Assembly: GCA_903928345.1 (NCBI GenBank)
Contig: CAIYQO010000266.1
Span: forward strand, 2,029 to 66,028
Direction: 5' to 3'
Source of the DNA: an uncultured bacterium
Lineage (GTDB): Bacteria; Armatimonadota; Hebobacteria; CAIYQO01
DNA: 64,000 bases
Position 1 is the stretch's first letter. Every line of letters begins with the position of its first letter. Below the pieces are notes generated by a model that was not told the origin of the DNA, did not search any database, and worked only from the letters and a program-made list of their open reading frames with translations. The translations under genes were made by a program, and so were the position numbers. This document shows, one piece after another, positions 18,389 to 39,080 of this stretch.

Positions 18389-20515
18389 ATGCCGCAATCC
18401 TCTCGCGTCCTCCTCCTGCTCATCGTCGTGCTGCTCGCCGCCGGCGCGTGCGCGGCGGAGACGCCGTTGAAGTATTCCGCCGGGTGGCTCGGGAACAGCT
18501 TTGCCAACCCGCAGTGGATTCAAAAGGACGGCCTGGGGCTGGCGGTGGGGGCGGACGGCGCCTGCTACCTCACCGCGTCGTGGGACGAAGTCGGCAAGGG
18601 GCTGGGTATCTATCGCGACGGCAACGCGGTCGGGATGTGCCAGGGCATCAGCGTCGGCGACGGCGCGGTGGCGGTGGACGACAAATACATCTATGGCGGC
18701 ACCTACCGCGACATCGCGGGCAAAGGGACGCATGGCATCGGGCGTTGGGGGCTGGACGGCTCGCCGGCACCGACCGCGGGGGGCTCGAACTTCCTGCCCA
18801 TCGGGGCGGCGTGGATGGCCGCCGCGACGGCGTACCAGGGCGAATTATTCGTCGGGGATACCGACGCGATTCGCGTCTACGACCGGGAGACGCTGGTGGA
18901 GAAGCGCCACTTCCCCTGCCCGCACCCGTTTCGGCTGGCGGTGGACCACACCGGGCTGCTGTGGGTGATCGGGTGCGTCGCGACCACCGAGGCGGGCATG
19001 CCGGCCACGCTGACGCAATACACCCGCGACGGGGCGCTCACCGGCGTGCGGATCGCCGATGTGGACGGCGCCACCGCGCTGGCGATCACCCCGACGGGGG
19101 GGCTGCTGGTGGCCGGGCCGCGGCAGCAGGTGCTGAAATACGACCTGTCAGGCCAGGCGCCTAAACTGGTCGGCACACTGGGCGTGGCGGGCGGCGTGTG
19201 GGCCGGCACGCCCGGCGCGATGGCACCGAACAAGCTGCTGGGGCTGATCGGCGTGGGGTGCGACGCGCTCGGAAATATCTACACGTTGGGGCGCGCCCCG
19301 GCGGTGGGCGGCGGCGTGGACTTGCGCAAGTTCAAGGCCGACGGCACCCTCATCTGGCAGCGCTTCAACACCGGCTTCACCGACTGCGCGGACGTGGACC
19401 CGGCGTCGGACGGCCTGGACGTCTACACCCGCGACGAGCACTTCGTTTTCGACGCCAAGAAGCCGCTCGGGGCGCAGTGGGTATGGAAGGGCTACACCCT
19501 CGACCCGCGCTATGACGACGGTCGCGCCGAGGGGCGCGCTTGCGGCGACAGCATGTTCAACTGGGGCTCGCCCCTCGTGCGGCGGCTGCAGGGGCGGCTG
19601 TACCTGTTCACGCGCCCGGGCAGCTACTTCGGCATCTTCCGCCAGGGGAAGGGCGAGGTGTTCCTCCCCAGCGGGCTCATCGGGCTCACGCCGACATGGC
19701 TTATCGTCGCCCCCGCCGACAACCGGCGCGACACCGTGTGGCCCCCGCAGCAACCCACCCCGCGCTCGCGGTGGAACTGGCGCGACGCCAACGGCGACGG
19801 CAAAATTCAGCCCGAGGAGATCACCAACTCCCCCAAGCTGCTGACCGAAGTGGAAGCGATCAACGGCTCCTGGGTGGATGACCAGGGGGATATCTGGCTG
19901 GCCGGCTCCTCGAGCGGCATCCGCTGCCTGTGGCACATGCCGCTGCTGGGCTTCGACGCGCAGCAGAACCCGATCTACACGTGGGAGAAGACGCAGCGCC
20001 TGCCCTTGCCCAAGGAGTTCACCGATTGCGGCCGCATCCAGTATGACGCGCGCACGGATACCATGTATCTCTCCGGCATGACCCCGGAGCACCCGAACGA
20101 CACGCACTGGGGGGACATCGGGCCGGTGATCGCGCGGTATGACCACTGGTCGAAACCGGAACGCACCCTGCGCTGGACAATTCAGGAGCCGGCCGGCCCG
20201 CCGAAGTCGGCGAACGGCGACGCCTTCTTCCCCGCGCTCGCCATCGCCGGCAATCGCGTCTTCGTGATGCAGCGCTACGGGGCGCGCATCTGGGTCTACG
20301 ACGCGGACAGCGGCGCCTACGCCGGCATGGTCACCACCACGCCGGAGGTCGGCCCCTCCGGCTGGTGCGATATGCCCTTCGGCCTGTCCGCCTTCGCGCG
20401 CAAAGACGGCAGCGTGTTGCTGCTGGCGGAAGACGACTACCGCCCGAAGGTGCGCACCTACCTGGTGCCGCCGCAGCCGCTGGACCCCAAGGCGGTGCGC
20501 CCGGCGGCGTGGTAA
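18389..20515 (+). CDS. large secreted beta-propeller-like protein, type B paralog
   Basis: 708 aa. Signal peptide. Shares GFDAQQNPIYTWEK and a C-terminal AEDDY module with 25884 and 45163. Divergent from type A gene 14281. Confidence 0.7.
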   Translation: MPQSSRVLLLLIVVLLAAGACAAETPLKYSAGWLGNSFANPQWIQKDGLGLAVGADGACYLTASWDEVGKGLGIYRDGNAVGMCQGISVGDGAVAVDDKYIYGGTYRDIAGKGTHGIGRWGLDGSPAPTAGGSNFLPIGAAWMAAATAYQGELFVGDTDAIRVYDRETLVEKRHFPCPHPFRLAVDHTGLLWVIGCVATTEAGMPATLTQYTRDGALTGVRIADVDGATALAITPTGGLLVAGPRQQVLKYDLSGQAPKLVGTLGVAGGVWAGTPGAMAPNKLLGLIGVGCDALGNIYTLGRAPAVGGGVDLRKFKADGTLIWQRFNTGFTDCADVDPASDGLDVYTRDEHFVFDAKKPLGAQWVWKGYTLDPRYDDGRAEGRACGDSMFNWGSPLVRRLQGRLYLFTRPGSYFGIFRQGKGEVFLPSGLIGLTPTWLIVAPADNRRDTVWPPQQPTPRSRWNWRDANGDGKIQPEEITNSPKLLTEVEAINGSWVDDQGDIWLAGSSSGIRCLWHMPLLGFDAQQNPIYTWEKTQRLPLPKEFTDCGRIQYDARTDTMYLSGMTPEHPNDTHWGDIGPVIARYDHWSKPERTLRWTIQEPAGPPKSANGDAFFPALAIAGNRVFVMQRYGARIWVYDADSGAYAGMVTTTPEVGPSGWCDMPFGLSAFARKDGSVLLLAEDDYRPKVRTYLVPPQPLDPKAVRPAAW

Positions 20516-24740: not shown

Positions 24741-25729
24741 ACGCGAACTCCTAACATCGGCAGCGGGAATTCCCCCTGCACGTCGACCGGGCGGCGTTCC
24801 GCGACGGCGCGCCGCAGTGCCGCTTCGAATTGCAGCTCCACCACGCCGGCCAACCCCGGCACGGGCGGGGGCGCGTCGGCGCGAATGCTGTCGAGATACG
24901 CGCCCAGCGCCTGCTCGAAGGAGGCATCGTACTGGTGCCAGCGCGAATGGTTGGGGATGAGGGCGTGGGTTTCCGCGTAGCGGCTCCCGTTTTCGTAGAC
25001 TTCCAGCGTGCCGTCCAGATCGCGGAAGCGCAACATGCCGTGGGCAAAGCACAGCGTCATGTCGTACAGCGCCAGCGAGAAATCCGTGCCGCCGGTGCCG
25101 AGAATCGTGCCGGTGGCCCCCTGGACCAGCGTGAAGGCCGCCGCCACGTCGCCCGCCTGGCCGGCGTCGCCCGCCAGCGCGGTGATCGTCGCCGCCCGCC
25201 CGCCGAACAGGTGCAGCAGGTCGATGCAGTGGCTCCAGCAGGCGAAGTGCACCAGCAGCGTGGCCTGCTGCAAGGGGCCGAAGTTGCGCTCCGCCACAAT
25301 GCGCCGGGCGCGCTGCGACTGGGCGAAGAAACGGTAGTTGAAGACCATCGCCGTCTGCACGCCCGCCCCCTCCGCGCGCGCCAACAGCGCCGCGGCGCGG
25401 GTGAAATCGCCCTCGCACACCTGCGCCTGCCCATGTTGGGCGACGAGGGGTTTCTCGAAGAAGAGGCGCTTCACCGGCCCGGCGTCGAGCAGTGCGGTGG
25501 CCGCCGCGTCGCGGGTAGTCTCATTAGTGAGCAGCAGCACGGCATCCGGCGCGTCGTCCACCAGCGCGCGCAGGGAGTCGTAGACGCGCCCGCCGAAGTC
25601 GCGCGCGCAGGCCTCCGCCTTCTCCCGCGTGCGCGAGAAGTAGCTCAGCGTCACGTCCGCCTGCCCCGCGAGAAACGGGAGATAGTTGCCGCGGGCCACG
25701 GCGCCCGTGCCGACGATGGCGATCTTCAT
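24737..25729 (-). CDS. Gfo/Idh/MocA-family NAD(P)-dependent oxidoreductase
   Basis: MKIAIVGTGAVARGNYLPFL N-terminal Rossmann fold. 330 aa. Confidence 0.8.
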   Translation of the reverse strand: MKIAIVGTGAVARGNYLPFLAGQADVTLSYFSRTREKAEACARDFGGRVYDSLRALVDDAPDAVLLLTNETTRDAAATALLDAGPVKRLFFEKPLVAQHGQAQVCEGDFTRAAALLARAEGAGVQTAMVFNYRFFAQSQRARRIVAERNFGPLQQATLLVHFACWSHCIDLLHLFGGRAATITALAGDAGQAGDVAAAFTLVQGATGTILGTGGTDFSLALYDMTLCFAHGMLRFRDLDGTLEVYENGSRYAETHALIPNHSRWHQYDASFEQALGAYLDSIRADAPPPVPGLAGVVELQFEAALRRAVAERRPVDVQGEFPLPMLGVRV

Positions 25730-25883
25730 CGGGTCACCTTTCTGCGTGCCGGCTACCGATGGCCGGGTTGGTTCATCTTACCAACTGCCGACCGGGTTGG
25801 CAATGCAACGTAACGCGTCATCGGAAGGGATTTGCACCGGAATAGCAAATAACAGAGCTATCCGTTTTCGGGGAGGCGTGCCC

Positions 25884-28250
25884 ATGCACACCCGCCTGTT
25901 CCTTATCGTCGCGCTGCTGTTCGCCGGGCTGGCCGTGTCCGCGGCGGAGCCGTCGCGCTACCGCTTTACCTACACGCTGCCGACGGCGGCGGCGCTGACC
26001 AGCGCGGGGGTATACGATGCCCACGACCACCTGGTGAAGACGCTGTGGACGCTGCAGCCGCTGGCGGCGGGGGTGCAAACGGCCGCCTGGGACGGGCTGG
26101 ACGCCGACGGGCAGCCCGTGCCGGCGGGCGCCTACACCTGCAAGGTGGTGGTGAACCGCGGGGTCTACACGCAGCGCGGCATCATCGGCAACACGGGCAC
26201 ACCGAGTAATACCTTCGGCCACGTGCCCATCAACTTCGAGGCGGTGGCGGTGGATCGCGACGGCTTCATCTACACCGTGCATGACTGGGATGAGCCGCAC
26301 AACGACGTGATCCGCTGGAACCCCGCCACCGGCGCCGTGGCCTCGCACTCCGGGCACCCCATCGGCGACCTGATGAAGGCGGTGGCGGTGGACGACGCTT
26401 ACGCCTACGTCTCCCTTTACAGCAACCTGGACGACCGCGCCAAAGCGAAGTTTTACCTGGCTCGCCTGCGCATCGACAAAACGCCAGGCGCCGCGGGATG
26501 GGCGGTGACGCCCTTCACCAAAGCGGGGCGTTTCCTCATGGTTTACGACGACGGCGCGGCGTACCCCGACGGGGTCAGCGACGCCGACCGCGGGCTGATG
26601 CGCGTGCCGCTGCTGTCGCTGGCGGTGCACGGACAGACCCTCTACGCCGTCGACGCGCTGGCCGGGCTGGTGCGGATGTATGACAAAACGACCGGCGAGG
26701 CCACGGGCCACATCGCCGTACCGCTGCCGCAAGCGGTGGCGGTAGCCCCCGACGGGCGGGTGTGGGTGGGCCACGCGCACCACCGGGTGAGCGTCTTTAC
26801 TGCCGACGGCAAAGCGGTCGGCACGCCGATCACCGACCTGACGGAGGTGAACGCGCTGGCCTTCGGCCCCGACGGCGCGCTCTACGTGGCCGACCAGGGG
26901 GCCGGGCAGGTGAAGGTCTACGCGGTAGCCGGCGCCGCCGTCACGCCGCGCCGCACGCTGGGCACCCCGGCACTGCCCGGCGACCGCGCGGCGGACCACT
27001 TCTTCCACCTGCACGGGCTGGCGGTAGACGGCCAGGGCAACGTGATCACCGCGCAGAACGAATACTTCTTCAACGGCGGGCGGCTGGCCAAATTCGCCGC
27101 GGACGGCACGGTGCAGTGGGAGCAGTACGGGCTGGAGTTCCAGTCCAACGGCACCTACGGGGCCAACGATCCGGACACCTTCATCTCCGTGATGGACCAC
27201 GCCTACCGGCTGAACCGCGCCACGGGGAGCGCCGCCTACCTGGGGCAGGGCTACACCGGCACCGGCTATCACGGCGGCCCCAGCGGCACGCCGCGGGTGT
27301 GCCGCCTGGGTGCGCACGACTTCTACTACTTCCCCAGCGGAGACGGCGTGCAGGTGTACCGCATCGACCCCAACCCCGCCGGCGGCAGTCCGCTGCTCAC
27401 CTTCGTGTCCATCCTGGGCCGCGCCCAGCCGCTGCCCACCGGCGTGATGGCCGAGGCGGTGTGGAAGGGCGAGAACTACTACCTGTGGTCGTGGCACGAC
27501 GCGCGCGGCGACCACACCGTGCACCCGGAGGACGTCTCCCTGTGGGCGAAGCCGGAGGACAAGCGTCCCCTGTGGCAGTACGGCCCGCTGACGGTGGACG
27601 CCGACAAAAATATCTGGATGCCGTCCTACGACCGTGGCGGCAACACGCCGGAGCAGAACTCCGTGTGGATGGTGCCGCTGGCCGGGCTGGACGCGCAAGG
27701 CAACCCGATGTACGAGTGGAAGAACGTTGTGTGCGTGGTGCCGCGCGGGTCGCTGCTGTGGGACACCGGCGTGAAGATGGTGCAGCACGACGCCGACGGC
27801 TACACCTACCTTTACGGCGCGACGAAGCGCAAGGACGCGCCGCAGAACGGCGGGGTGTGGATGGGCGGCAACACGCTGGCCTGTTTTGACGGCCCCGAGC
27901 GCCGCTGGCAGATTCTGCTGCCCGACATCTGCGTGGGGATGGACGTGATCCCCGGCAACCAGGGTGGCTGCATTCTCGGCGGCGACCCCTTCCACGGCGG
28001 GCTGCACCATTACACGCGCGACGGGTTGCTCATCGGCAAGGTCGGCCCCGACCCGAAGCTGATGGGTGCGCCGCCGAATAACCCCAGCGGACTGCTCGAC
28101 TTCTTCGGCGCGGTGGTGGTGAAACGCAACCCGCGCGACGGTATCCTGGACGTCTTCGCCGAGGACGACTACAACCTGCGCATCGCCTGGTACCGCATCG
28201 ACGACCGCGCCATCGACACCATCAGCGGCCCGCTGACCGTTGCGCGGTAA
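25884..28250 (+). CDS. large secreted protein, type B paralog (FlgD-Ig-like plus NHL/beta-propeller-like plus C-terminal AEDDY module)
   Basis: Start at MHTRLFLIVALLF (RBS GGGAGG at 25871-76). Motifs WDGLDADGQPVPAGAYTCK and LAFGPDGALYVADQGAGQVKVY. Confidence 0.7.
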   Translation: MHTRLFLIVALLFAGLAVSAAEPSRYRFTYTLPTAAALTSAGVYDAHDHLVKTLWTLQPLAAGVQTAAWDGLDADGQPVPAGAYTCKVVVNRGVYTQRGIIGNTGTPSNTFGHVPINFEAVAVDRDGFIYTVHDWDEPHNDVIRWNPATGAVASHSGHPIGDLMKAVAVDDAYAYVSLYSNLDDRAKAKFYLARLRIDKTPGAAGWAVTPFTKAGRFLMVYDDGAAYPDGVSDADRGLMRVPLLSLAVHGQTLYAVDALAGLVRMYDKTTGEATGHIAVPLPQAVAVAPDGRVWVGHAHHRVSVFTADGKAVGTPITDLTEVNALAFGPDGALYVADQGAGQVKVYAVAGAAVTPRRTLGTPALPGDRAADHFFHLHGLAVDGQGNVITAQNEYFFNGGRLAKFAADGTVQWEQYGLEFQSNGTYGANDPDTFISVMDHAYRLNRATGSAAYLGQGYTGTGYHGGPSGTPRVCRLGAHDFYYFPSGDGVQVYRIDPNPAGGSPLLTFVSILGRAQPLPTGVMAEAVWKGENYYLWSWHDARGDHTVHPEDVSLWAKPEDKRPLWQYGPLTVDADKNIWMPSYDRGGNTPEQNSVWMVPLAGLDAQGNPMYEWKNVVCVVPRGSLLWDTGVKMVQHDADGYTYLYGATKRKDAPQNGGVWMGGNTLACFDGPERRWQILLPDICVGMDVIPGNQGGCILGGDPFHGGLHHYTRDGLLIGKVGPDPKLMGAPPNNPSGLLDFFGAVVVKRNPRDGILDVFAEDDYNLRIAWYRIDDRAIDTISGPLTVAR

Positions 28251-28532: not shown

Positions 28533-31500
28533 ATGCCTACCCGCGCGTTTTTCCTCGCCCTCGGCGTTTGCGCCGTGCTGTGCCTCGCCGCTCTGACGGC
28601 GCGCGCCACGGAGACGGAGCATCTCGGCCTGCAGGTCCTCCCCGCGCCCGGCGCGGTGACGGTGGACGGCAACGCCGCCGACTGGGATCTCTCCGGCGCC
28701 ATCTTCACCTGCGGTGATGTGGAAGGGCAGCGCGAGCAATACGCCGTATGGCTCTCCGCCATGTACGACGCCAAATACCTCTACGTGCTGGCGCGCTGGG
28801 CCGACTCGACGCCGATGAACAACCCCGGTCAGACGATTGCCGACTACGGGTGGGACGGCGACTGCCTGCAGGTGCGCCTCATCACCAACGACGGCACCCC
28901 GCGGAAGCAGGTCAGCGTGGCGAACTGCTGGAAGGGCAGCGATGGCGCGGACGTGGTGCAGATGGACATCGAGGGGCAGGGGCACGGCCCGCGCGGCCTC
29001 GACATGAAGCCGCAGGGTGTGCTGCAGGCCTTCCGCGCCAATCCGGACGGCAAAGGGTACGTGCAGGAGATCGCCTTCCCGTGGGCGCTGCTCACCGCCG
29101 ACCACCAGCCGCTGACCGCCGGCGGCTCCTTCATCCTCACCATGGAACCCAACTTCACCATCGGGCGCAAGGGGCGCCTGAGCATCAAGGACATCTTTCG
29201 CCCCGGCGTCACCATCGACCGCGTCTTCACCTTCATGGCCGCGAACACCTGGGGCGTTGCCACGCTGGAGAAGAAGGGCCACGTCGTCCCGCGCCCGGTG
29301 CGCCTCTCCGACGCGCGCGAGTTCCCGGTGAAGTATGCCGACGGCCAGCCGGTTATCGACTGGACGGGGCTGATCAAGCAAAAGACGTTACTCGGCTTCA
29401 AACCGATCACCTTCACCATGCCCGACGACGGCTATGTGTCGTTGAACCTGTACGATAAGGACGGCACCGTGGTGCGCCAGTTGCTGAACAGCGAATTCCG
29501 CACCAAGGGCAAGCAGACCGTGCTGTGGGACGGGCTGACGACGACGAATTTCCGCACGCCGGGCACGCCGGTCGCCGCCGGCAGCTACACCTGGCATGCC
29601 ATCGTGCACAAGGGCATCGGCGTGCGCCTGCGCGGCTGGGCCGCCAACAGCGGCAGCGCCCCGTGGGACGCCAGCGCCACCAGCAACTGGGGCGGCGACC
29701 ACGGCATCCCCTGTGCCTGCGTCGCCGACGACGAGCGCGTCTACCTGGGCTGGAGCGCCGCGGAAGCCGGCAAGGCGCTCCTCGCCTGCGACCGCCAGGG
29801 CCACGTGCTCTGGAAGAACAGCCGCGAGGGCATGGCCGGCGCCGAGTTGCTGGCCGCGGACCACGGCACCCTCTACGTGCAGCACTGGGGCGGCTGCCTG
29901 TACCGCCTCAACACGAAGGACGGCAGCTACCTGGCGTGGGACGGCACCACCTCCGCCGACATCTTCGTGAAAAACTTGTGGGGTGATGCCAAGGGCATGC
30001 CCGAGCGCGCCGACACCATGGCGGTGACCAACGGCACGCTGTACCTGGGCTTCACCAAGGAAAACCTGATCCTCGCCGTCGACGGGAAGAGCGGCGCCGT
30101 GCGCGGAAAGTTCGCCTGCCCGGCGCCCGTATCCCTCTACGCCACCGCCGGCGCGCTGTACGCGGTGAGCGGCGGCACGCAGGTGCTGCGCCTCGACCCG
30201 CGGGACGGCAAGACGACGCCCGTCCTCACCGACCTGACCGCCGCCCACGCGCTCACCCGCGACGCCGCCGGCAACTTCTACGTGGGCATAGGCGACCCGG
30301 ACAACCAGGTGAAGGTGTATTCACCCGACGGCAAGCTCCTCAAGGCGCTCGGGCGTCCCGGCGGGCGCGCGCTGCTCGGTACCTGGCAGCCGGACGGCAT
30401 GCGCTTCATCAGCAGCCTGGCCATCGATGCCGACGGCCAACTGTGGGTGGCGGAGAATGACCGCGTGCCCAAGCGCTTCAGCACGTGGAACACCACCACG
30501 GGCGCGCTGGTAGCCGAATTCTTCGGCCCCTCCTCCTACGGCGCGCTGGGTGGCGCCATCAACCCCCGCGATCCCTACCTGATGGTCGGCCAGGGCTGCG
30601 AGTGGCGGCTGGACCCGAAGACGGGCACGGCACGCTGCCTGGGCGTCATCACCCGCGACGGCATGGAGAACGCGCGCTTCGGCATCGGCGCCAACGGCCG
30701 CCTGTACCTGGCGGTGGCCGCGGACTGGTTCAACGGCCCGGTGGCGATCTATGAGCGGCTGGGCGACGCGAACTACAAGCTGCGTACGCTCCTCACCCCG
30801 CCGAAGCAGGGGCAGCAGATGATTACCGTCTGGTCCGACGCCAACGACGACGGCCGGCAGCAGCCCGAGGAAGTCAAAACATATACCCTGGACCTGAAGG
30901 GCTGGCTCAGCGGCTGGTTCATGCCGATGACCGGCGACCTGACCTTTTGGGGCACGGTGTATGGGATTAAGGTCACCGGCTACACCGCCTGCGGCGCGCC
31001 GCTCTACGATCTGACGCAGGCGGTCAAGCTGCCGGAGCCCGCCAATCTGGCCGGACGCGGTGGCATGGGCGCGCAGTTGGGCCTGGGTTCCACCGACGGG
31101 AAGTTCATGCTCTACAACGGGCATTACATGGCGTCGAACAGCGACTTCGTCTGCTACGACATCGCCTCCGGCAAGGTGAAGTGGACGTACCCCAACAACT
31201 TCGTCGGCGTGCACGGCTCGCATAACGCCGGCCCGCCGGAGCCCGCGCTGATCCGCGGCGCTTATGACATCGCCGGCGCCGCCAAGCTGCCGGTCGTCGG
31301 CGACGTATGGGTGATCGGCACCAACTTCGGCGAGTGGCACCTGCTCACGCAGGACGGTTTTTACCTCACCCGCCTCTTCGAGCCCGACCCGTTGAAGGTG
31401 AAGTGGCCGGATCCGGCGGTGCCCGGCGTAGATATGAACCACGTGCCCAGCGGCATGGGCGGCGAAGACTTCGGCGGCTCAGTCACGCAAGGCACCGACG

Positions 31501-32351
31501 GCACGCTGTCGCTGCAGGTCGGCAAAACGGGGTACTGGAACGTGGAAGTGACCGGCCTGCCGGAGATCCAGGCGTTGAAGGGCGGCGCGGTGACGATCAA
31601 GCCGGCCGAGGTGGTGCAGGCGCAGGGCTTCCGCGAAGGATATCTGCAGGCTGCGGTGGGCAAGCAGCGGCTGAGCGTGGCCCACGCCTCCCCCGCCTTC
31701 ACGGGCGACCCGGCGGCGGATTTCAAGGGGTGCACCCCCGCCGCCTACCGCAAGCAGGACGACGCCGCGGTGAAGACGATGGCCGCCTGGGACGACACCC
31801 ATCTGTACCTGAGCTGGGACGTGGCGGACGCCACCCCGTGGCAGAACAGCGCCACCGACCCCTTCCAGATGTATATCGGCGGCGACACGGTGGACCTGCA
31901 ACTGGGCACCAACGCGGCGGCGGATAAGAACCGCGGCGAAGGCGTCCTCGGCGACCTGCGCGTCTCCATCGGCAACTTCCGCGGCACGCCCACGGCGGTG
32001 CTCTACCGCAAGGTCTCCGCGGTGAAGCAGCCGTATACCTTCAGCTCGGGCGTCATCCGCGCCTACCCGATGGACTACGTGAGCCTCATCGACGGCGCCC
32101 TCATCCACGTGAAGGTGCAGCCGGGCAAGGGGTACGTGGTGGAAGCCTCCCTGCCGCTGGCGGCGCTGGGCTTCACCCCGCGCGAAGGCCTCACCCTGCA
32201 CGGCGACTTCGGCGTCACCCACGGCGACGCCGCAGGCCGCACCCGCCTGCGCACCTACTGGAGCAACCAGCACACCGGCATCGTGGACGACGCCGTCTTC
32301 GAGCTGCAAGTGGAGCCGAAGAACTGGGGCGAGTTGGAATTCAAGCCGTAA
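28533..32351 (+). CDS. giant secreted multidomain protein, type A paralog
   Basis: 1272 aa from MPTRAFFLALGVCAV. VDGNAADWDLSG (CBM9-like). The C-terminal 250 aa are about 60% identical to the C-terminus of 14281. Confidence 0.8.
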   Translation: MPTRAFFLALGVCAVLCLAALTARATETEHLGLQVLPAPGAVTVDGNAADWDLSGAIFTCGDVEGQREQYAVWLSAMYDAKYLYVLARWADSTPMNNPGQTIADYGWDGDCLQVRLITNDGTPRKQVSVANCWKGSDGADVVQMDIEGQGHGPRGLDMKPQGVLQAFRANPDGKGYVQEIAFPWALLTADHQPLTAGGSFILTMEPNFTIGRKGRLSIKDIFRPGVTIDRVFTFMAANTWGVATLEKKGHVVPRPVRLSDAREFPVKYADGQPVIDWTGLIKQKTLLGFKPITFTMPDDGYVSLNLYDKDGTVVRQLLNSEFRTKGKQTVLWDGLTTTNFRTPGTPVAAGSYTWHAIVHKGIGVRLRGWAANSGSAPWDASATSNWGGDHGIPCACVADDERVYLGWSAAEAGKALLACDRQGHVLWKNSREGMAGAELLAADHGTLYVQHWGGCLYRLNTKDGSYLAWDGTTSADIFVKNLWGDAKGMPERADTMAVTNGTLYLGFTKENLILAVDGKSGAVRGKFACPAPVSLYATAGALYAVSGGTQVLRLDPRDGKTTPVLTDLTAAHALTRDAAGNFYVGIGDPDNQVKVYSPDGKLLKALGRPGGRALLGTWQPDGMRFISSLAIDADGQLWVAENDRVPKRFSTWNTTTGALVAEFFGPSSYGALGGAINPRDPYLMVGQGCEWRLDPKTGTARCLGVITRDGMENARFGIGANGRLYLAVAADWFNGPVAIYERLGDANYKLRTLLTPPKQGQQMITVWSDANDDGRQQPEEVKTYTLDLKGWLSGWFMPMTGDLTFWGTVYGIKVTGYTACGAPLYDLTQAVKLPEPANLAGRGGMGAQLGLGSTDGKFMLYNGHYMASNSDFVCYDIASGKVKWTYPNNFVGVHGSHNAGPPEPALIRGAYDIAGAAKLPVVGDVWVIGTNFGEWHLLTQDGFYLTRLFEPDPLKVKWPDPAVPGVDMNHVPSGMGGEDFGGSVTQGTDGTLSLQVGKTGYWNVEVTGLPEIQALKGGAVTIKPAEVVQAQGFREGYLQAAVGKQRLSVAHASPAFTGDPAADFKGCTPAAYRKQDDAAVKTMAAWDDTHLYLSWDVADATPWQNSATDPFQMYIGGDTVDLQLGTNAAADKNRGEGVLGDLRVSIGNFRGTPTAVLYRKVSAVKQPYTFSSGVIRAYPMDYVSLIDGALIHVKVQPGKGYVVEASLPLAALGFTPREGLTLHGDFGVTHGDAAGRTRLRTYWSNQHTGIVDDAVFELQVEPKNWGELEFKP

Positions 32352-32511
32352 CTGCACGCGCGACCATGCGGTTCGCCGCGGTGGGGCAAGCGGGCACACA
32401 CAGGCCGCACCCGTAGCAGCGGGTGCGGTCGAGGTGCAGCGCGCCCTCCGCCATGGTGCGCGCGTGGAAGAGGCAGTGGTCGACGCAGGCGCCGCAATCG
32501 GTGCAGCGCAC
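32341..32511 (-). CDS. small 2x[4Fe-4S] ferredoxin (57 codons, GTG start), absent from the ORF track
   Basis: Hand translation gives (V/M)RCTDCGACVDHCLFHARTMAEGALHLDRTRCYGCGLCVPACPTAANRMVARAVTA*. Two CxxCxxCxxxC(P) motifs. The purine-rich GGTGAGGGG lies 6 nt upstream of the GTG. The stop overlaps the 3' end of 28533 by 11 nt (convergent). Confidence 0.5.
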   Translation of the reverse strand: MRCTDCGACVDHCLFHARTMAEGALHLDRTRCYGCGLCVPACPTAANRMVARAVTA

Positions 32512-32521
32512 TCGGTGCCCC

Positions 32522-33181
32522 TCACCCCAGCAACATCCCCGCCAGTTCGAGCACCGAGGGGAGGAGCAGGTCGGGGTGGGCGGCGGTGAGGGCGGCGGCG
32601 TCGGACTGGCCGGTGAGCACCGCCACGGTGGGCATGTGCGCGGCGTGGCCCATTTCGATATCCATCGGGTGGTCGCCGACCATCAGCGTGACGGCGGGGG
32701 TGCGCTCCAGCAGGTGCAGCATCTCCAGCACGTGCGCCGGGTGCGGCTTGGGACGGTGCACGGCTTCGCGGCAGAGCAAGGCGTCGAAGGGCAGCGGCGC
32801 GTCGCCGATGATGCGCGCCACCGCGGCGCTGGAGTTGCGCGTCACGATGCCCAGCCGATACCCCGCCTGCCGCAAGGCGGCCAGCGCCTCGACCACCCCC
32901 GGCAGCAGGCGGGTGACGGCGGCGGCTTCGTATTCCAACGCGCTCAGCCGCCCCATCGCCTCGTCGCGGAAGGCCGCCGCGCGCAACTGATCCGCCCCCA
33001 GCAGCTCCGCCCCCGCCGCGATCGTCTCCAGCAGTCCCAGCTCGCCCAGGTGCAGCGGGTCCAGCCCGTGTGCGCGCGCCGCGTCCAGCACCACGCGCCG
33101 CATGTGGGCGAAGTCATACGGGCACGTGGCCAGCGTGCCGTCGAAGTCAAAAACCAGCGCCGTTATCCCGAGCAAATGCAT
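32522..33181 (-). CDS. HAD-superfamily hydrolase (phosphoglycolate phosphatase-like)
   Basis: Start MHLLGITALVFDFDGTLA (DxDGT motif I). Motif III/IV GDHPMDIEMG. Confidence 0.75.
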   Translation of the reverse strand: MHLLGITALVFDFDGTLATCPYDFAHMRRVVLDAARAHGLDPLHLGELGLLETIAAGAELLGADQLRAAAFRDEAMGRLSALEYEAAAVTRLLPGVVEALAALRQAGYRLGIVTRNSSAAVARIIGDAPLPFDALLCREAVHRPKPHPAHVLEMLHLLERTPAVTLMVGDHPMDIEMGHAAHMPTVAVLTGQSDAAALTAAHPDLLLPSVLELAGMLLG

Positions 33182-33240
33182 ACCGGCTTCTTCCCCGGTT
33201 GACCGGGATCTCCTGCCACCCCGCGCGTACCATGCCGATA

Positions 33241-33269
33241 TTGACAACGCAAAAGAGCAGTCGTATAGT
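33241..33269 (+). promoter_or_regulatory. sigma70 consensus-like promoter TTGACA-17-TATAGT
   Basis: -35 at 33241-46 and -10 at 33264-69. RBS CAGGAGG, then ATG 33299. Confidence 0.5.
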
Positions 33270-33298
33270 TAGCTATTCTTTTCCCAGGAGGTTCCCCC

Positions 33299-34453
33299 AT
33301 GCGCAAGGGCTTTACCCTGATCGAACTCCTTGTCGTGATAGCGATAATTGCTATCCTGGCCGCTATCCTTTTCCCCGTCTTCGCCAAGGCGCGCGAGAAG
33401 GCGCGGCAGACGGCGTGCATCAACAATCAGAAGCAGATCACCACCGCGACGCTGATGTATGCGCAGGACAACAACGAAATGCTCCCCGACGCCGGCAGCT
33501 TCTGGGGCGCGCTGAACATCGACCGCGGCGTGTTGAAGTGCCAGACGAAGAGCCGCCTCGCCAACGGCTACGTCTACTACAGCGCGATCTCCGGGCAGGC
33601 GCTGGGGAAGATCAACGCGCCGGAGAGCACCGCCCTGACGGGTGATGGGTTGCACAACGCCACGACGACCCCGCTCACCTATGACAACGTGGCCTACACC
33701 GACGCCGACTTCGATACCGCGCGCCACGGCGGCAAATATATCGTCTCCTTCGTCGACGGCCACCAGGAGCTGTACAGCACCGGCGTCTTCGGCAACGCGG
33801 CCGTCTTCGCGCTGGACGAAAACACCGGCACGTCGGCCGGCGACTCCAGCGGCAAAGGCGGCACCGGCACGCTCTTCAACACCGCCAGTTGGACCGCCGG
33901 GCATCTGGGCTACGCGGTGAAGTGCGACGGCAACAACAGCTACGTCGAAATCACCAACAACGCCAACCTGGAGAACGTGCAGGAAAGCAACTACACGCTG
34001 GCGGCGTGGTTCAAGCCCAACAGCAACCCCGCCGGCACCGGCTCCGCCAACAACGCCTGCTACGGCATCATCTGCAAGCAGGGGTACCATACCGGGCTCA
34101 CCTACAACAACGGCGGCACCTTTTCGATGTCGCAGTGGTATAACCCGGGGCCGGCGTGCGCGGGCGCCACGACAAGCGGCACCTACGCGCCGGGGAGCTG
34201 GTATCATGTGGCGGCCACCATCGACCGCACCAACGGCATCGTGAAGCTCTATGTCAACGGGACGCAGGACGGCACGAGCAGCTATACCAAGAACGCCGCC
34301 ATTTACGAGTACAACCAGATGCAGTGGCGCATCGGCATCGCGCAGCCCGGCGCCGGCACGTACCGCTGGTGCGCTGACGGCATCATCGACGACGCGCGCA
34401 TCTACAACAAGGCGCTCTCCGACGCGGAAGTCGCCTACCTCGCCGCGCAGTAA
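33299..34453 (+). CDS. prepilin-type N-terminal cleavage/methylation domain protein with LamG-like (concanavalin-type) domain
   Basis: [28 protein letters not shown] (type IV pilin-like N-terminus). C-terminal ...[24 protein letters not shown]...[16 protein letters not shown] (LamG-like). Confidence 0.8.
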
Positions 34454-36436: not shown

Positions 36437-37291
36437 ATGCCGATATTTGCCGCGTCACCCCTGCCGGATGCCGCGCCGCCCAGCTTCTGGGTGGTCCAGA
36501 CGCTGCCGCACTTCTGGCTCTACGTGCTGGTCAGCACCGTGCTCTTCGTCGGCTTCATGGCCCTGCTGCACCAGTTGCCCGCGCGCGGCAAAAAATGGCT
36601 GATGCTCGGTACCACCTTCCTGGCCGGGTGCTACTTCGTGCTGGAATACTTCCTGCCCGTCCACAAGCTGGATGACGGCACCCTGGGGAACTTCATCACC
36701 CCGACGACGGACCCGGTCAATAACTTCATGATGATCGTGCTGTCGTGGCCGGTGCTGCTGGGCCTCATCAGCCTGGCGACCGTACACGGCACGCGCCTCG
36801 CGAAGGGCAAACCGGGGTGGCACAACAGCCTGGCCTTCTTCCTGGCGCTTATCGGCATGCTCGTGGTCGGCTTCTGGGCGGAGGGGCACGCCAACGCGCC
36901 CGCCGCCGTGCAATTCATTCACGACTCGCTCTATAACGGCCTGCTGGTGAACCTGGACTCCGCCATGTTCGCGCTGCTCGCCTTCTACATTGCCTCCGCC
37001 GCCTACCGCGCCTTCCGCATCCGCACCGCGGAGGCCGCGCTGCTGATGGTTTCCGCGCTGGTGGTGATGCTCGGTGTGGTGGGCGTGGGCGTGGCCATCA
37101 CCAGCCATATCCCCGAGAGTTCGAACTGGGCCTTCTTCCGGCTGGAAAATCTCTCCCTCTGGCTGCTCAAGTGGGTGAATATGCCCGGGCAGCGCGCGGT
37201 GATGATCGGCGTGGCGGTGGGCGCGCTGGCGATGGCGATCCGCCTGTGGCTCAGCCTGGAGCGCGGCGCCTTCTTTTCGGTGGAGGGGTAA
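36437..37291 (+). CDS. polytopic membrane protein (about 6 TM), uncharacterised
   Basis: 284 aa. RBS GAAGGAG. First of three tightly linked membrane-protein genes. Confidence 0.6.
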   Translation: MPIFAASPLPDAAPPSFWVVQTLPHFWLYVLVSTVLFVGFMALLHQLPARGKKWLMLGTTFLAGCYFVLEYFLPVHKLDDGTLGNFITPTTDPVNNFMMIVLSWPVLLGLISLATVHGTRLAKGKPGWHNSLAFFLALIGMLVVGFWAEGHANAPAAVQFIHDSLYNGLLVNLDSAMFALLAFYIASAAYRAFRIRTAEAALLMVSALVVMLGVVGVGVAITSHIPESSNWAFFRLENLSLWLLKWVNMPGQRAVMIGVAVGALAMAIRLWLSLERGAFFSVEG

Positions 37292-37294
37292 ACA

Positions 37295-38245
37295 ATGGGG
37301 CGTTTTCTCGATCTCATGCAGAATCTCGACCGCCGCATCATTTACCTGGTGATCGGCGTGTTGCTGGTAGTGGTGCTGCTCCTCGGCAAGTCGGAAACCG
37401 GCGTGGTGCTGGAGCCGACGCAGAAGTTCTTCGACTCGGTGCAGGCCGCGGATACCTCGCCGCAATCGCACAAGATCATCGTCGTCGGCGTCACCTTCGC
37501 CGCCAACACGCTGGCGGAGAACGGCAACCAGATGCGCGCGCTGGTGCGCCACTTGATGCTCACACACAAACGCTTTGCCGTCGTCGCGGTGGGCGAGCCG
37601 CAGGGCGCCGCCCAAGGCCCACGCATCGTGAAGGATCTGGCCGCGCAGTACGGGTACACCTACGGCACCGACTGGATCGACTTCGGCTACCAGCTCCCGT
37701 CGCTGGGCTTCTACAAGCTCTATACGAAGGACATTCCGAACGCCATCAAGGAAGACGGGCAACTGAAAAAGCCGATCGCCTCCTTCCCGATCATGGACGG
37801 GATCAAGACGGTGAGCGACAATGTCGCGATGCACGTGGAGATCACCGCGTCCTCCAGCGTCTTCGACTGGATTCAATACGTGCAGAACGCGACGCACTTG
37901 AAGATCGGGTATGCCTGTACCGGCGTGATGGCCTCGGAAGCCTACCCGCTGCTCGACTCCGGGCAAATCTCCGGGCTGATGGCCGGGCTGAAGGGCGCGG
38001 CGGACTACGAGCAGTTGACGGACAGCCTGGAGCAGGCACAGGTGCAGGCCGGCACGCGCAAGGCGATGTATGACCCGAAGGCCACCCCCAGCCTGCAGTT
38101 GCCGCAGCCGGCACGCATGTTGATGTTCACGCAAAGCGCCGCTCACCTGGCGATCATCATCTTTATCATCCTGGGCAACGTAGGCCTGTTGTTGTCGACG
38201 CGTCTCGCCCGCAAGAACGGAAAGGAGAGTTCCGCGCATGACTGA
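37295..38245 (+). CDS. bitopic membrane protein with large extracytoplasmic domain, uncharacterised
   Basis: 316 aa with N- and C-terminal TM segments. Starts 4 nt after the previous stop. Confidence 0.6.
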   Translation: MGRFLDLMQNLDRRIIYLVIGVLLVVVLLLGKSETGVVLEPTQKFFDSVQAADTSPQSHKIIVVGVTFAANTLAENGNQMRALVRHLMLTHKRFAVVAVGEPQGAAQGPRIVKDLAAQYGYTYGTDWIDFGYQLPSLGFYKLYTKDIPNAIKEDGQLKKPIASFPIMDGIKTVSDNVAMHVEITASSSVFDWIQYVQNATHLKIGYACTGVMASEAYPLLDSGQISGLMAGLKGAADYEQLTDSLEQAQVQAGTRKAMYDPKATPSLQLPQPARMLMFTQSAAHLAIIIFIILGNVGLLLSTRLARKNGKESSAHD

Positions 38246-39080
38246 CGACACGCAAGCACAACCGGTGCGCCGCCCGGACGGTGAAGAGTCTCCCCTGTGG
38301 ATCGGCGGGCTGCTCGCGCTGATGGTGGTGCTGGTGGTGATCGGCGCGGTCTTCGTCGCGCCCACCCAAGCCTATCACGGGCCGTGGATCACCGTCCTCG
38401 GCGTCATCGCGACGCTGGGCATCTTCTCCATCCTGTACAAGGAGAACCCGCTCTTTCGCTTCTTCGAGCACATCTATATCGGGTTGGCGACGGCTTTCGG
38501 TATCTATTTTCTTTGGAACGACTTCATGATGGCGCACTGGTGGCAGCCGATGTTGCCCAAAATGGCCTCCAATCCGGCTGGCCAGGGGCAGTGGTGGCTG
38601 ATCTTCACCTTGCTCATCGGGGGGCTATTCTTCACCGTCTACTTCGCGAAGATTACCTGGATGAACCGCTTCATCATCGGCGTGCTGATGGGCTGGGGCG
38701 CGGGGTATGCCTTCTCCGCCTTCATGAGCCTCATCGCCCCGCAGCTCACCGCCTCCTTCCGCCCGCCGGTGTCGCACGAGTCGATGGTGGCCGTGGGGAT
38801 GACCAAGGAAAACAACTTCCCGTGGCACGGCCTGTACTGGCACCCGTGGCTGCTCATTTCGCTCATCGTGCTGCTCTGCGTGATGGCGTACTTTTTCTTC
38901 TCCGTGGAGCACCGCTCGGGACTCATCAAGCACCCCGCCATCGCCGGGCGCTACTTCCTGATGATCACCCTGGGCGCCATCTTCGGCACCACGGTAATGA
39001 GCCGCTTCACGCTCCTCATCGGCCGCCTCGACTTCCTCATCCACGCGGTGAAGGACCTGCTGGCGGCGATACACCACTAA
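38238..39080 (+). CDS. polytopic membrane protein (about 7 TM), uncharacterised
   Basis: 280 aa. Overlaps the previous gene by 8 nt. Confidence 0.6.
   Translation: MTDDTQAQPVRRPDGEESPLWIGGLLALMVVLVVIGAVFVAPTQAYHGPWITVLGVIATLGIFSILYKENPLFRFFEHIYIGLATAFGIYFLWNDFMMAHWWQPMLPKMASNPAGQGQWWLIFTLLIGGLFFTVYFAKITWMNRFIIGVLMGWGAGYAFSAFMSLIAPQLTASFRPPVSHESMVAVGMTKENNFPWHGLYWHPWLLISLIVLLCVMAYFFFSVEHRSGLIKHPAIAGRYFLMITLGAIFGTTVMSRFTLLIGRLDFLIHAVKDLLAAIHH

What the first reader, a model, noticed from the sequence alone, without database searches (positions are those of the whole stretch)
32341..32511. Unannotated 57-codon 2x[4Fe-4S] ferredoxin gene with GTG start, convergently overlapping a giant-protein gene
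Hand translation of the minus strand gives a clostridial-type ferredoxin with two CxxCxxCxxxC(P) motifs and a purine-rich RBS. It was not in the supplied ORF track (non-ATG start, under 60 aa). It fills the 170-nt gap between 28533..32351 and the HAD hydrolase gene, and its stop overlaps the A2 stop region by 11 nt.
Basis: seen in the sequence. Interest (0 to 1): 0.6.

Follow-up and report, generated by a model that had tools for sequence, protein, structure and literature searches.

The report
Small unannotated two-cluster ferredoxin gene
The 170-base gap between two annotated genes holds a real but ordinary 56-residue iron-sulfur electron-carrier (ferredoxin) gene that public annotation missed; it is unusually short at its front end and has no close relatives.

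Summary
Window 32341..32511 (-) is an open 56-aa GTG-start ORF with two CxxCxxCxxxC motifs separated by 18 residues, the canonical spacing. It fills the 170-nt gap between the HAD phosphatase gene and the convergent 1272-aa gene, overlapping the latter by 11 nt. It is not chance: no double motif arose in 300 simulated windows. Pfam Fer4, Fer4_7 and Fer4_9 score above their gathering cut-offs. GC3 is 0.86, like host genes. A Shine-Dalgarno match of -9.0 kcal/mol is reached by only 3.8% of internal start-like codons. The AlphaFold model (pLDDT 93.8) superposes on clostridial ferredoxins. Both flanking proteins are in public collections but this peptide is not, so it is unannotated. It belongs to a recognisable subfamily (C-x-F-x-A-R after cluster motif 1) that mostly forms the C-terminal domain of uncharacterised CxCCxCCC proteins. 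It is as conserved as other members. Caveats: only 2 residues precede the first Cys (at least 8 in verified relatives), the best relative is 64% identical, no redox partner lies nearby, four HAD-bearing relatives lack it (no synteny survives there), and a 515-bp sister scaffold breaks off after codon 30. Best reading: a functional stand-alone 2x[4Fe-4S] ferredoxin co-transcribed with HAD (about 0.65). Main rival: a recently severed, possibly non-functional domain remnant (about 0.27). Ordinary; low interest.

The parts
32341..32511 (-). Ferredoxin CDS: 56 aa, GTG start, TGA stop, 2x[4Fe-4S] dicluster domain
   Evidence: ORF. Pfam Fer4/Fer4_7/Fer4_9 above gathering. GC by codon position 0.67/0.63/0.86, like host genes. 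AF2 pLDDT 93.8 and ferredoxin fold matches.
32473..32505 (-). Cluster motif 1, CTDCGACVDHC (C3, C6, C9, C13), followed by the subfamily signature L-F-H-A-R
32386..32418 (-). Cluster motif 2, CYGCGLCVPAC (C32, C35, C38, C42), followed by Pro
32518..32528 (-). Shine-Dalgarno-like GGGGTGAGGGG that embeds the HAD stop codon TGA (32524-32522), 6-16 nt upstream of the GTG
   Evidence: Anti-SD duplex energy of -9.0 kcal/mol. Only 3.8% of 1009 internal start-like codons reach this value, and confident starts in the window give -9.3 to -11.9.
32522..33181 (-). Upstream cistron: HAD-family phosphatase (219 aa from ATG 33181). It ends 10 nt before the ferredoxin start, and no terminator lies between them.
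   Evidence: Pfam HAD_2 at 82.9 bits. The exact 219-aa protein is in public collections. No terminator-like site was found.
32341..32351 (.). 11-nt tail-to-tail overlap of the ferredoxin 3' end with the 3' end of the convergent 1272-aa CBM9-like gene (28533..32351 +)
   Evidence: Coordinates. The 1272-aa protein is in public collections.

Best explanation
This is a genuine protein-coding gene for a minimal stand-alone 2x[4Fe-4S] ferredoxin. Shown: the ORF, the motifs, the family membership, the codon-position bias, the SD site and the predicted fold. Inferred: it is transcribed as the second cistron of a two-gene HAD-ferredoxin unit. Only 10 nt separate the genes, the SD overlaps the HAD stop codon, and there is no terminator, so translation is probably coupled to HAD. 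Inferred from established knowledge of clostridial-type ferredoxins: C3, C6 and C9 plus C42 hold one cubane, and C32, C35 and C38 plus C13 hold the other. The protein would then shuttle low-potential electrons between oxidoreductases encoded elsewhere in the genome. It belongs to a subfamily (C-x-F-x-A-R after motif 1, C-x-GCGLC in motif 2) that usually forms the C-terminal domain of uncharacterised 130-220-aa CxCCxCCC proteins. It most likely descends from such a domain, or from a stand-alone member like P0049, and it has lost the N-terminal strand.
For: Chance is excluded. Three Pfam dicluster models score above gathering. All 8 Cys and the invariant or near-invariant subfamily residues G7, F15, A17, R18, G34, G36 and L37 are kept. 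Mean identity to 63 subfamily cores is 50.4%, against 51.3% among the members themselves. The out-of-sample subfamily HMM score is 72.6 bits, within the members' range of 60.8-85.6, so there is no sign of relaxed constraint. GC3 is 0.86 in this frame only among the frames that stay open. The SD strength is in the top 3.8% of background and equals that of true starts. The GTG sits exactly at the domain boundary, and the ORF exactly fills the intergenic gap. AF2 gives pLDDT 93.8, and the top Foldseek PDB hits are 9g03_E, 1fdn and 1fca. A verified stand-alone subfamily member exists in the same kind of setting: P0049, 63 aa, 11 nt behind thiD on 3 contigs. An independent scaffold reproduces the HAD-spacer-GTG junction at 100% identity, and a gene caller used the same GTG there. 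Rfam finds no RNA family in the gap. The canonical CX2CX2CX3C-X18-CX2CX2CX3C spacing (PMC12920312) is met.
Against: Only 2 residues precede the first Cys. In all 32 signature-bearing hits the first Cys is at least 8 residues in. The two apparent 3-residue cases found later (P0162, P0167) proved to be internal-Met calls inside frameshifted long-form genes. The strand that normally pairs with the C-terminus is therefore missing. No relative exceeds 64% identity, so selection cannot be measured on orthologues. No ferredoxin lies within 6 kb of HAD in four Armatimonadota relatives. No redox partner is nearby. The 515-bp scaffold L014, reported in 2 samples, breaks away after codon 30 into another gene's C-terminus, which suggests the gene may be disrupted in a sub-population. 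There are no expression data.
Confidence: 0.65

Rival explanations
1. The ORF is a recently severed domain remnant: the C-terminal ferredoxin domain of a long-form CxCCxCCC protein whose N-terminal part was lost in a rearrangement that placed it directly behind HAD. It is still intact in sequence but is not, or is no longer, a functional stand-alone protein. It would be unstable without the N-terminal strand, or not translated.
For: The closest relatives (P0075 at 64%, and P0074, P0026 and P0100 at 55-61%) carry this domain at the C-terminus of larger proteins. Homology starts within 5 residues of the HAD stop, and the 8-12-residue N-terminal lead is missing. The HAD C-terminus in the window is the shortest of the five orthologues, which fits a junction at that point. 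There is no orthologue, no synteny and no partner gene. The scaffold L014 shows this locus rearranged again inside the ORF. In other lineages (L027-L030), disrupted long-form genes leave exactly this kind of callable 54-56-aa ferredoxin ORF. Public annotation did not call the ORF.
Against: The ORF shows no excess divergence from the subfamily. All diagnostic residues are intact. GC3 matches the host. A start codon and a strong SD sit precisely at the domain boundary, where background sites reach that SD strength only 3.8% of the time. A random breakpoint would rarely preserve the whole 8-Cys domain while removing everything upstream. No trace of the N-domain is found in any frame of the window.
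Confidence: 0.27
2. The ORF is an assembly artefact or part of a larger product. Either the window contig is chimeric near 32422, so that the ORF does not exist in any cell, or the ferredoxin is made as a fusion with HAD through recoding.
For: L014 and the window disagree downstream of 32422, so at least one of the two assemblies differs from some genome in the sample.
Against: A chimeric join would not produce an in-frame ferredoxin whose two halves both carry the same subfamily signature and whose conserved hairpin G-x-L-x-x-D-x-x-x-C spans the junction. The HAD-ferredoxin junction itself is reproduced at 100% identity in L014. The ferredoxin frame is +1 relative to HAD and lies after its TGA. 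The HAD orthologues end at the same place without any ferredoxin, and no HAD-ferredoxin fusion appeared among the hits.
Confidence: 0.04
3. The ORF is a chance open frame in GC-rich DNA, or the gap holds a non-coding element (a terminator or a structured RNA) between convergent genes.
For: GC-rich genomes have many spurious ORFs. The ORF is under 60 aa with a non-ATG start.
Against: No double motif arose in 300 simulations, and the analytic expectation is around 1e-6 to 1e-5 per window. Pfam E-values are 4e-11 to 1e-9. There are no Rfam hits and no terminator-like sites.
Confidence: 0.01

Closest known systems
Classical clostridial 2x[4Fe-4S] ferredoxins (e.g. C. acidurici 1fdn/1fca, C. pasteurianum 1clf, C. 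autoethanogenum 9g03_E; 52-57 aa)
   Same: They have the same total size and the same CX2CX2CX3C-X18-CX2CX2CX3C spacing. The predicted fold superposes at 1.7-1.9 A over 44-48 residues, with TM 0.68-0.76. Sequence E-values are 4.6e-5 to 4.8e-4.
   Different: Identity is only 30-34%. The lead before the first Cys is 2 residues here against 7 there, so the N-terminal strand is absent, while the C-terminal tail is longer (14 residues against about 9). Leu replaces Pro after motif 1. The NCBIfam FdxA_fam score is 34.3 bits against a cut-off of 65. The subfamily HMM gives the window peptide 72.6 bits but a classical clostridial ferredoxin only 33.2.
C-x-F-x-A-R ferredoxin domain at the C-terminus of uncharacterised 130-220-aa Cys-rich proteins (CxCRE ... 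RPFRD ... GIC-x-CC-x-CCC-x-YF), e.g. P0075, P0074, P0026, P0100, P0143
   Same: These are the closest sequences, at 55-64% identity. They share the full signature C..C..C...C-x-F-x-[AS]-[RK] ... C-x-GCG-x-C...C, with the same 13-residue stretch between the [AS]-[RK] pair and the first Cys of motif 2.
   Different: The window has no N-terminal Cys-rich domain in any frame. The ORF starts at the domain boundary. The family itself has no Pfam or NCBIfam model for its N-domain and no known function.
P0049, a stand-alone 63-aa ferredoxin of the same subfamily (L023-L025)
   Same: It is 53-56% identical and is a true independent gene, with a stop one codon upstream of its ATG. It sits 11 nt behind a non-redox housekeeping gene (thiD), much as this ORF sits 10 nt behind HAD.
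   Different: P0049 keeps a 12-residue N-terminal lead and starts with ATG. Its genomic neighbours are different.
Ferredoxin domains and delta subunits of 2-oxoacid:ferredoxin oxidoreductases (OOR 5c4i_B; PFOR PorD 9bt4_G/H)
   Same: These are good fold matches, with TM 0.75-0.79 normalised to the query and rmsd 1.4-1.6 A. The NCBIfam PorD_KorD alignment covers residues 2-51.
   Different: The scores are far below the family cut-offs (32.3 against 60 bits). No OFOR alpha, beta or gamma genes are in the window.

Membership tests
2x[4Fe-4S] dicluster ferredoxin domain (Pfam Fer4 / Fer4_7 / Fer4_9) | Score above the curated gathering threshold of the Pfam models | tested here: met
   Fer4 scores 42.6 against 21.1, Fer4_7 39.8 against 27, Fer4_9 38.5 against 27 and Fer4_2 34.5 against 24.5.
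2x[4Fe-4S] dicluster ferredoxin domain (Pfam Fer4 / Fer4_7 / Fer4_9) | Two CX2CX2CX3C motifs separated by about 18 residues (8 ligand cysteines) | tested here: met
   C3, C6, C9 and C13, then 18 residues, then C32, C35, C38 and C42. The canonical spacing is taken from PMC12920312.
2x[4Fe-4S] dicluster ferredoxin domain (Pfam Fer4 / Fer4_7 / Fer4_9) | Pseudo-symmetric (beta-alpha-beta)2 ferredoxin fold | tested here: met
   AF2 gives pLDDT 93.8. Foldseek PDB hits are 9g03_E, 1fdn, 1fca and 5c4i_B with probability 1.00 and rmsd 1.4-1.9 A. This is a prediction only.
2x[4Fe-4S] dicluster ferredoxin domain (Pfam Fer4 / Fer4_7 / Fer4_9) | Actual binding of two [4Fe-4S] clusters and a low redox potential | not testable with these tools
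   This needs anaerobic expression or reconstitution, UV-vis, EPR and electrochemistry.
Classical clostridial-type stand-alone ferredoxin (NCBIfam FdxA_fam NF058577) | Score above the curated cut-off (65 bits) | tested here: not met
   The score is 34.3 bits. The ORF is therefore not filed as a classical FdxA-type ferredoxin.
Classical clostridial-type stand-alone ferredoxin (NCBIfam FdxA_fam NF058577) | Cys-Pro at the end of both motifs, and a ~7-residue N-terminal strand pairing with the C-terminus | tested here: not met
   Motif 1 ends C13-Leu, and only motif 2 ends C42-Pro. Only M-R precedes C3. DSSP on the model shows only the central hairpin, E18-21 and E24-27.
C-x-F-x-A-R ferredoxin subfamily (defined here from the search hits) | Signature C..C..C...C-x-F-x-[AS]-[RK]-x13-C-x-GCG-x-C...C | tested here: met
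   The regex matches the window peptide and 32 of the top 149 HMMER hits. The invariant residues F15, A17, R18, G34, G36 and L37 are kept. The out-of-sample HMM score is 72.6 bits.
Long-form CxCCxCCC + ferredoxin proteins | N-terminal Cys-rich domain (RPFRD ... GIC-x-CC-x-CCC-x-YF) upstream of the ferredoxin domain | tested here: not met
   tblastn of P0026, P0033, P0074 and P0075 against the window hits only the ferredoxin domain. The upstream frame is off-frame HAD.
Expressed stand-alone small gene | Canonical start codon with a ribosome-binding site at the proper distance | tested here: met
   The start is GTG 32511. The SD duplex energy is -9.0 kcal/mol, in the top 3.8% of background.
Expressed stand-alone small gene | Conservation of the ORF in related genomes | tested here: inconclusive
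   It is absent next to HAD in L002-L005, but those loci share no other gene with the window. No relative above 64% identity was found anywhere.
Expressed stand-alone small gene | Transcript and protein detected | not testable with these tools
   No expression data are available.

The most novel reading that the evidence does not exclude
The ORF is a young gene born by domain escape. The C-terminal ferredoxin domain of the uncharacterised CxCCxCCC protein family was severed and captured directly behind a HAD phosphatase gene, using a GTG and an SD formed around the HAD stop codon. It now works as the shortest-lead natural 2x[4Fe-4S] ferredoxin, with no N-terminal strand. The L014 hybrid has the same SD, start and first cluster motif fused in frame to another gene's C-terminus, which would mark the locus as a site of ongoing gene-fragment shuffling.
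Probability: 0.2. Interest if true: 0.4.

Novelty: new member of a known kind. Interest (0 to 1): 0.25.

Why it matters
The main value is practical. This is a clear example of a real Fe-S protein gene lost to ORF-length and ATG-only filters, and also absent from the public annotation of the contig. Metabolic reconstructions of this Armatimonadota-like MAG would therefore undercount its electron carriers. There is secondary interest for ferredoxin evolution and design. If functional, it is a natural dicluster ferredoxin without the N-terminal strand, derived from a domain that normally sits on an uncharacterised Cys-rich protein. It does not open or resolve any long-standing question.

Tried and rejected
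(1) The single-sequence word-index search returned 'no candidate'. I rejected it as evidence of orphan status, because P0075 shares at least seven 5-mers with the query, so the search was simply insensitive for this short Cys-rich query. The exhaustive HMMER search and the profile search replaced it.

(2) P0162 and P0167 (54 and 56 aa, 3-residue lead) first looked like natural precedents for the minimal architecture. Inspection of their loci showed they are internal-Met calls inside frameshifted long-form genes, so I dropped that argument. P0021 and P0070 sit at contig ends and are probably truncated calls.

(3) I looked for the source contig's gene calls through the flanking proteins, but they are not in that index. 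The only place returned for the pilin-like neighbour was a 1.5-kb scaffold.

(4) By eye I took the non-window part of L014 to be a GT2 glycosyltransferase C-terminus. Pfam does not support this at E < 0.01, so I describe it only as another gene's C-terminal part in its native frame.

(5) I considered a HAD-ferredoxin fusion or recoding and rejected it, because the frame is +1 after a TGA, the HAD orthologues end at the same place, and no such fusion appeared among the hits.

(6) Rfam found no structured RNA in the gap, and the scan found no terminator.

(7) I looked for a functional link through neighbours, but none is a redox gene. The thiD-ferredoxin pairing of P0049 and the HAD-ferredoxin pairing here may be coincidence.
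Full report
OBSERVATION. The minus strand of window 32341..32511 is an open reading frame of 56 codons plus stop, starting with GTG. It translates to MRCTDCGACVDHCLFHARTMAEGALHLDRTRCYGCGLCVPACPTAANRMVARAVTA. It holds two CxxCxxCxxxC motifs (C3/6/9/13 and C32/35/38/42) separated by 18 residues. That is the canonical CX2CX2CX3C-X18-CX2CX2CX3C spacing of bacterial dicluster ferredoxins (abstract of PMC12920312, found). Only the second motif is followed by Pro; the first is followed by Leu. The ORF fills the 170-nt gap (32352..32521) between the stop of the + strand 1272-aa gene (TAA at 32349-32351) and the stop of the HAD gene (TGA at 32524-32522). The frame upstream of the GTG has no ATG/GTG/TTG and is an off-frame reading of the HAD 3' end. 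GTG 32511 is therefore the only canonical start that keeps all eight cysteines.

NOT CHANCE, AND CODING. In 300 third-order Markov simulations of the window, a single CxxCxxCxxxC motif arose 0.12 times per six-frame translation, and two motifs in one open frame never arose. GC content by codon position is 0.67/0.63/0.86, against 0.64/0.48/0.92 for the giant gene and 0.77/0.47/0.92 for HAD. The only other frame of the interval with high third-position GC contains a stop. Rfam finds nothing in 32150..32700 at E <= 1, and the scan of 32000..33600 finds no terminator-like site.

FAMILY. Pfam Fer4 (42.6 bits), Fer4_7 (39.8), Fer4_9 (38.5), Fer4_2 and Fer4_6 all exceed their gathering scores. NCBIfam gives only sub-threshold matches to ferredoxin domains of many enzymes and to FdxA_fam (34.3 bits against a cut-off of 65). 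Sequence matches in the PDB are polyferredoxin MvhB, FwdF, RnfB and the clostridial ferredoxins 1clf and 1fdn. An exhaustive HMMER search of 1.84 billion representatives gives 2652 hits at E <= 1e-3. An AlphaFold2 model built on a 32-sequence alignment has mean pLDDT 93.8. By Foldseek it is closest to the C. autoethanogenum ferredoxin 9g03_E, to C. acidurici 1fdn and 1fca, and to the ferredoxin domains of oxalate and pyruvate oxidoreductases, at rmsd 1.4-1.9 A.

A DISTINCT SUBFAMILY. The best full-length matches (47-64% identity) share a signature beyond the cysteines: C..C..C...C-x-F-x-[AS]-[RK] ... C-x-GCG-x-C...C. It is present in 32 of the top 149 hits and in the window peptide. F15, A17, R18, G34, G36 and L37 are invariant or nearly so in the alignments and are all kept here. 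Most members carry this domain at the C-terminus of 130-220-aa proteins with an N-terminal Cys-rich region (CxCRE ... RPFRD ... GIC-x-CC-x-CCC-x-YF). Neither Pfam nor NCBIfam has a model for that region. One member, P0049 (63 aa), is a verified independent gene. A stop lies one codon upstream of its ATG, it sits 11 nt behind thiD (TIGR00097, 324 bits), and it is identical on three contigs. The window peptide is as similar to 63 subfamily cores (mean 50.4%) as they are to each other (51.3%). It scores 72.6 bits against a subfamily HMM built without it, where members score 60.8-85.6 and a classical clostridial ferredoxin scores 33.2. It therefore shows no sign of relaxed constraint.

TRANSLATION START AND OPERON. 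The 20 nt upstream of the GTG (GCTGGGGTGAGGGGCACCGA) pair with the 16S anti-SD tail at -9.0 kcal/mol. Only 3.8% of 1009 in-frame internal ATG/GTG/TTG codons in the window's genes reach that value, and confident ATG starts give -9.3 to -11.9. The SD-like GGGGTGAGGGG embeds the HAD stop codon, and the gap between HAD and the ferredoxin is 10 nt. I infer co-transcription and probably translational coupling with HAD. The HAD gene (ATG 33181) diverges from a prepilin-type gene (33299 +), which has a near-consensus sigma-70-like promoter at 33241-33269.

ANNOTATION STATUS. The HAD protein from ATG 33181 (P0152) and the 1272-aa protein from ATG 28533 (P0153) are both in the 15-billion-protein collection, from a 67,330-bp NCBI/ENA contig. 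So is the prepilin-type protein. The 56-aa peptide is not, and neither are the alternative ORFs across the gap. 'Unannotated' is therefore supported for the public record, not only for the first stage's ORF track.

WHAT SPEAKS AGAINST A NORMAL FERREDOXIN GENE.
(a) Only Met-Arg precede the first cysteine. In all 32 signature-bearing hits the first Cys is at least 8 residues in. Two later hits with a 3-residue lead (P0162 and P0167) turned out to be internal-Met calls inside frameshifted long-form genes. The model shows only the central hairpin as beta structure.
(b) There are no close relatives. The best representative is 64% identical, the best hit in the profile search of the 90%-clustered collection is 58%, and the best hit in a tblastn-confirmed scan of JGI metagenome contigs is 56%, with all hits there being domains of larger proteins.
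(c) Four Armatimonadota MAGs have HAD orthologues at 66-69% identity. None has a ferredoxin downstream of HAD or anywhere within 6 kb. However, those loci share no other gene with the window, so this is weak evidence.
(d) There is no redox partner nearby. The neighbours are a CBM9-like secreted giant protein, a paralogous beta-propeller/Ig protein, a prepilin-type protein and an SNF-family transporter. The only other Fe-S gene is a DUF362+Fer4 protein 31 kb away.
(e) L014, a 515-bp scaffold from the same project that is reported in two samples, is 100% identical to window 32561..32422. That stretch covers the HAD 3' end, the spacer and ferredoxin codons 1-30. L014 then continues in frame into about 115 codons of unrelated coding sequence with native GC3 (0.85), and it was called there as a 145-aa protein from the same GTG. 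It is either a real sub-population variant in which the ferredoxin is disrupted or fused, or an assembly chimera. The window version cannot be the chimera, because both halves carry the same subfamily signature and the conserved hairpin spans the junction.

INTERPRETATION. That this is a genuine ferredoxin-domain coding sequence is nearly certain. Whether it makes a working stand-alone protein is less certain. In favour are the intact diagnostic residues, the subfamily-typical divergence, the host-like codon bias, and a strong SD plus start placed exactly at the domain boundary. I put a functional minimal 2x[4Fe-4S] ferredoxin, co-expressed with HAD, at about 0.65. Cluster ligation (C3/6/9 + C42 and C32/35/38 + C13) and low-potential electron shuttling follow from established knowledge of the fold and were not tested here. 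Work on designed half-ferredoxins that dimerise and bind two clusters (PMC12648291) shows that much-reduced versions of the fold can still bind clusters. The main rival, at about 0.27, is a recently severed C-terminal domain of a long-form protein that is still intact but unstable or untranslated. An assembly or recoding artefact (about 0.04) and a chance ORF (about 0.01) are minor. Together these four add up to 0.97; the remainder covers readings I have not thought of.

NOVELTY AND INTEREST. This is a new member of a known kind: a small ferredoxin gene missed because of its length and its GTG start. The truncated N-terminus, the orphan status and the link to an uncharacterised Cys-rich protein family are mildly interesting, but they would not surprise a specialist. 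Interest is 0.25.

Noticed in passing
L014 (515-bp ENA scaffold BUCK21-1_SAMEA6872785 scaffold_658005), compared with window 32422/32421: The scaffold is 100% identical to window 32561..32422 (HAD 3' end, spacer, ferredoxin codons 1-30). It then continues in frame into about 115 codons of an unrelated gene's C-terminus (GC3 0.85). It was called as a 145-aa hybrid protein (P0011) from the same GTG and is reported in 2 samples. It is either a strain variant or a chimera.
   Followed up: partly
L027 2811-3165, L028, L029 and L030 2838-3171: The small 54-56-aa 'ferredoxin' genes called there (P0162, P0167) are internal-Met calls inside long-form CxCCxCCC genes that are split by a frameshift. The first part of the N-domain lies in another frame. 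The same split structure occurs on three contigs from three JGI samples, and the shift site differs between L027 and L030. These could be pseudogenes, a systematic sequencing error or recoding.
   Followed up: partly
P0026, P0074, P0075, P0099, P0100, P0143; L015 4599-5303; L026 4001-4396: This is a compact, widespread protein family of 130-220 aa: CxCRE, then RPFRD, then GIC-x-CC-x-CCC-x-YF, then a C-terminal 2x[4Fe-4S] domain with C-x-F-x-A-R. Its N-domain has no Pfam or NCBIfam model, and its function is unknown. In L026 it sits next to msrA and msrB.
   Followed up: partly
L023 1-1064 (also L024, L025): A verified stand-alone 63-aa ferredoxin of the same subfamily (P0049) lies 11 nt downstream of thiD (HMP-P kinase) and upstream of an RRM-domain protein gene, in a GC-rich (67%) genome. 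This resembles the HAD-ferredoxin arrangement in the window.
   Followed up: partly
window 130-1266 (-): A DUF362 protein (186 bits) with a C-terminal Fer4 dicluster region (CIKCGKCAGHC at 271-303 and an atypical CLRCFCCHELC at 181-213). It is the only other Fe-S gene in the window, 31 kb from the ferredoxin.
   Followed up: partly
window 32522-33247 (-): The longest HAD ORF starts at TTG 33247, but the protein held in public collections starts at ATG 33181 (219 aa). The HAD C-terminus (…ELAGMLLG*) is 2-12 residues shorter than in the four Armatimonadota orthologues.
   Followed up: partly
window 33241-33269 (+): A near-consensus sigma-70-type promoter (TTGACA, 17 nt, TATAGT; 11 of 12 matches) lies 30 nt upstream of the prepilin-type N-methyl-domain gene 33299-34453. 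It sits in the 117-nt divergent region shared with the HAD-ferredoxin unit.
   Followed up: no
window 25686-28250 (+) and 28533-32351 (+): Two large tandem genes have FlgD-Ig-like hits. The hit is above Pfam's cut-off in the 854-aa protein (46.7 bits, with SGL and NHL beta-propeller hits). It is only sub-threshold in the 1272-aa protein (15.5 against 27 bits), which has an above-threshold CBM9-like domain. They may be related surface or secreted proteins. The relatives that carry the HAD orthologue have neither gene within 6 kb.
   Followed up: no
window 36437-39080 (+) and 18389-20515 (+): Three consecutive ORFs (284, 316 and 280 aa) and a 708-aa ORF have strong coding signatures (GC3 0.88-0.92) but no Pfam family at E <= 1e-4.
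   Followed up: no
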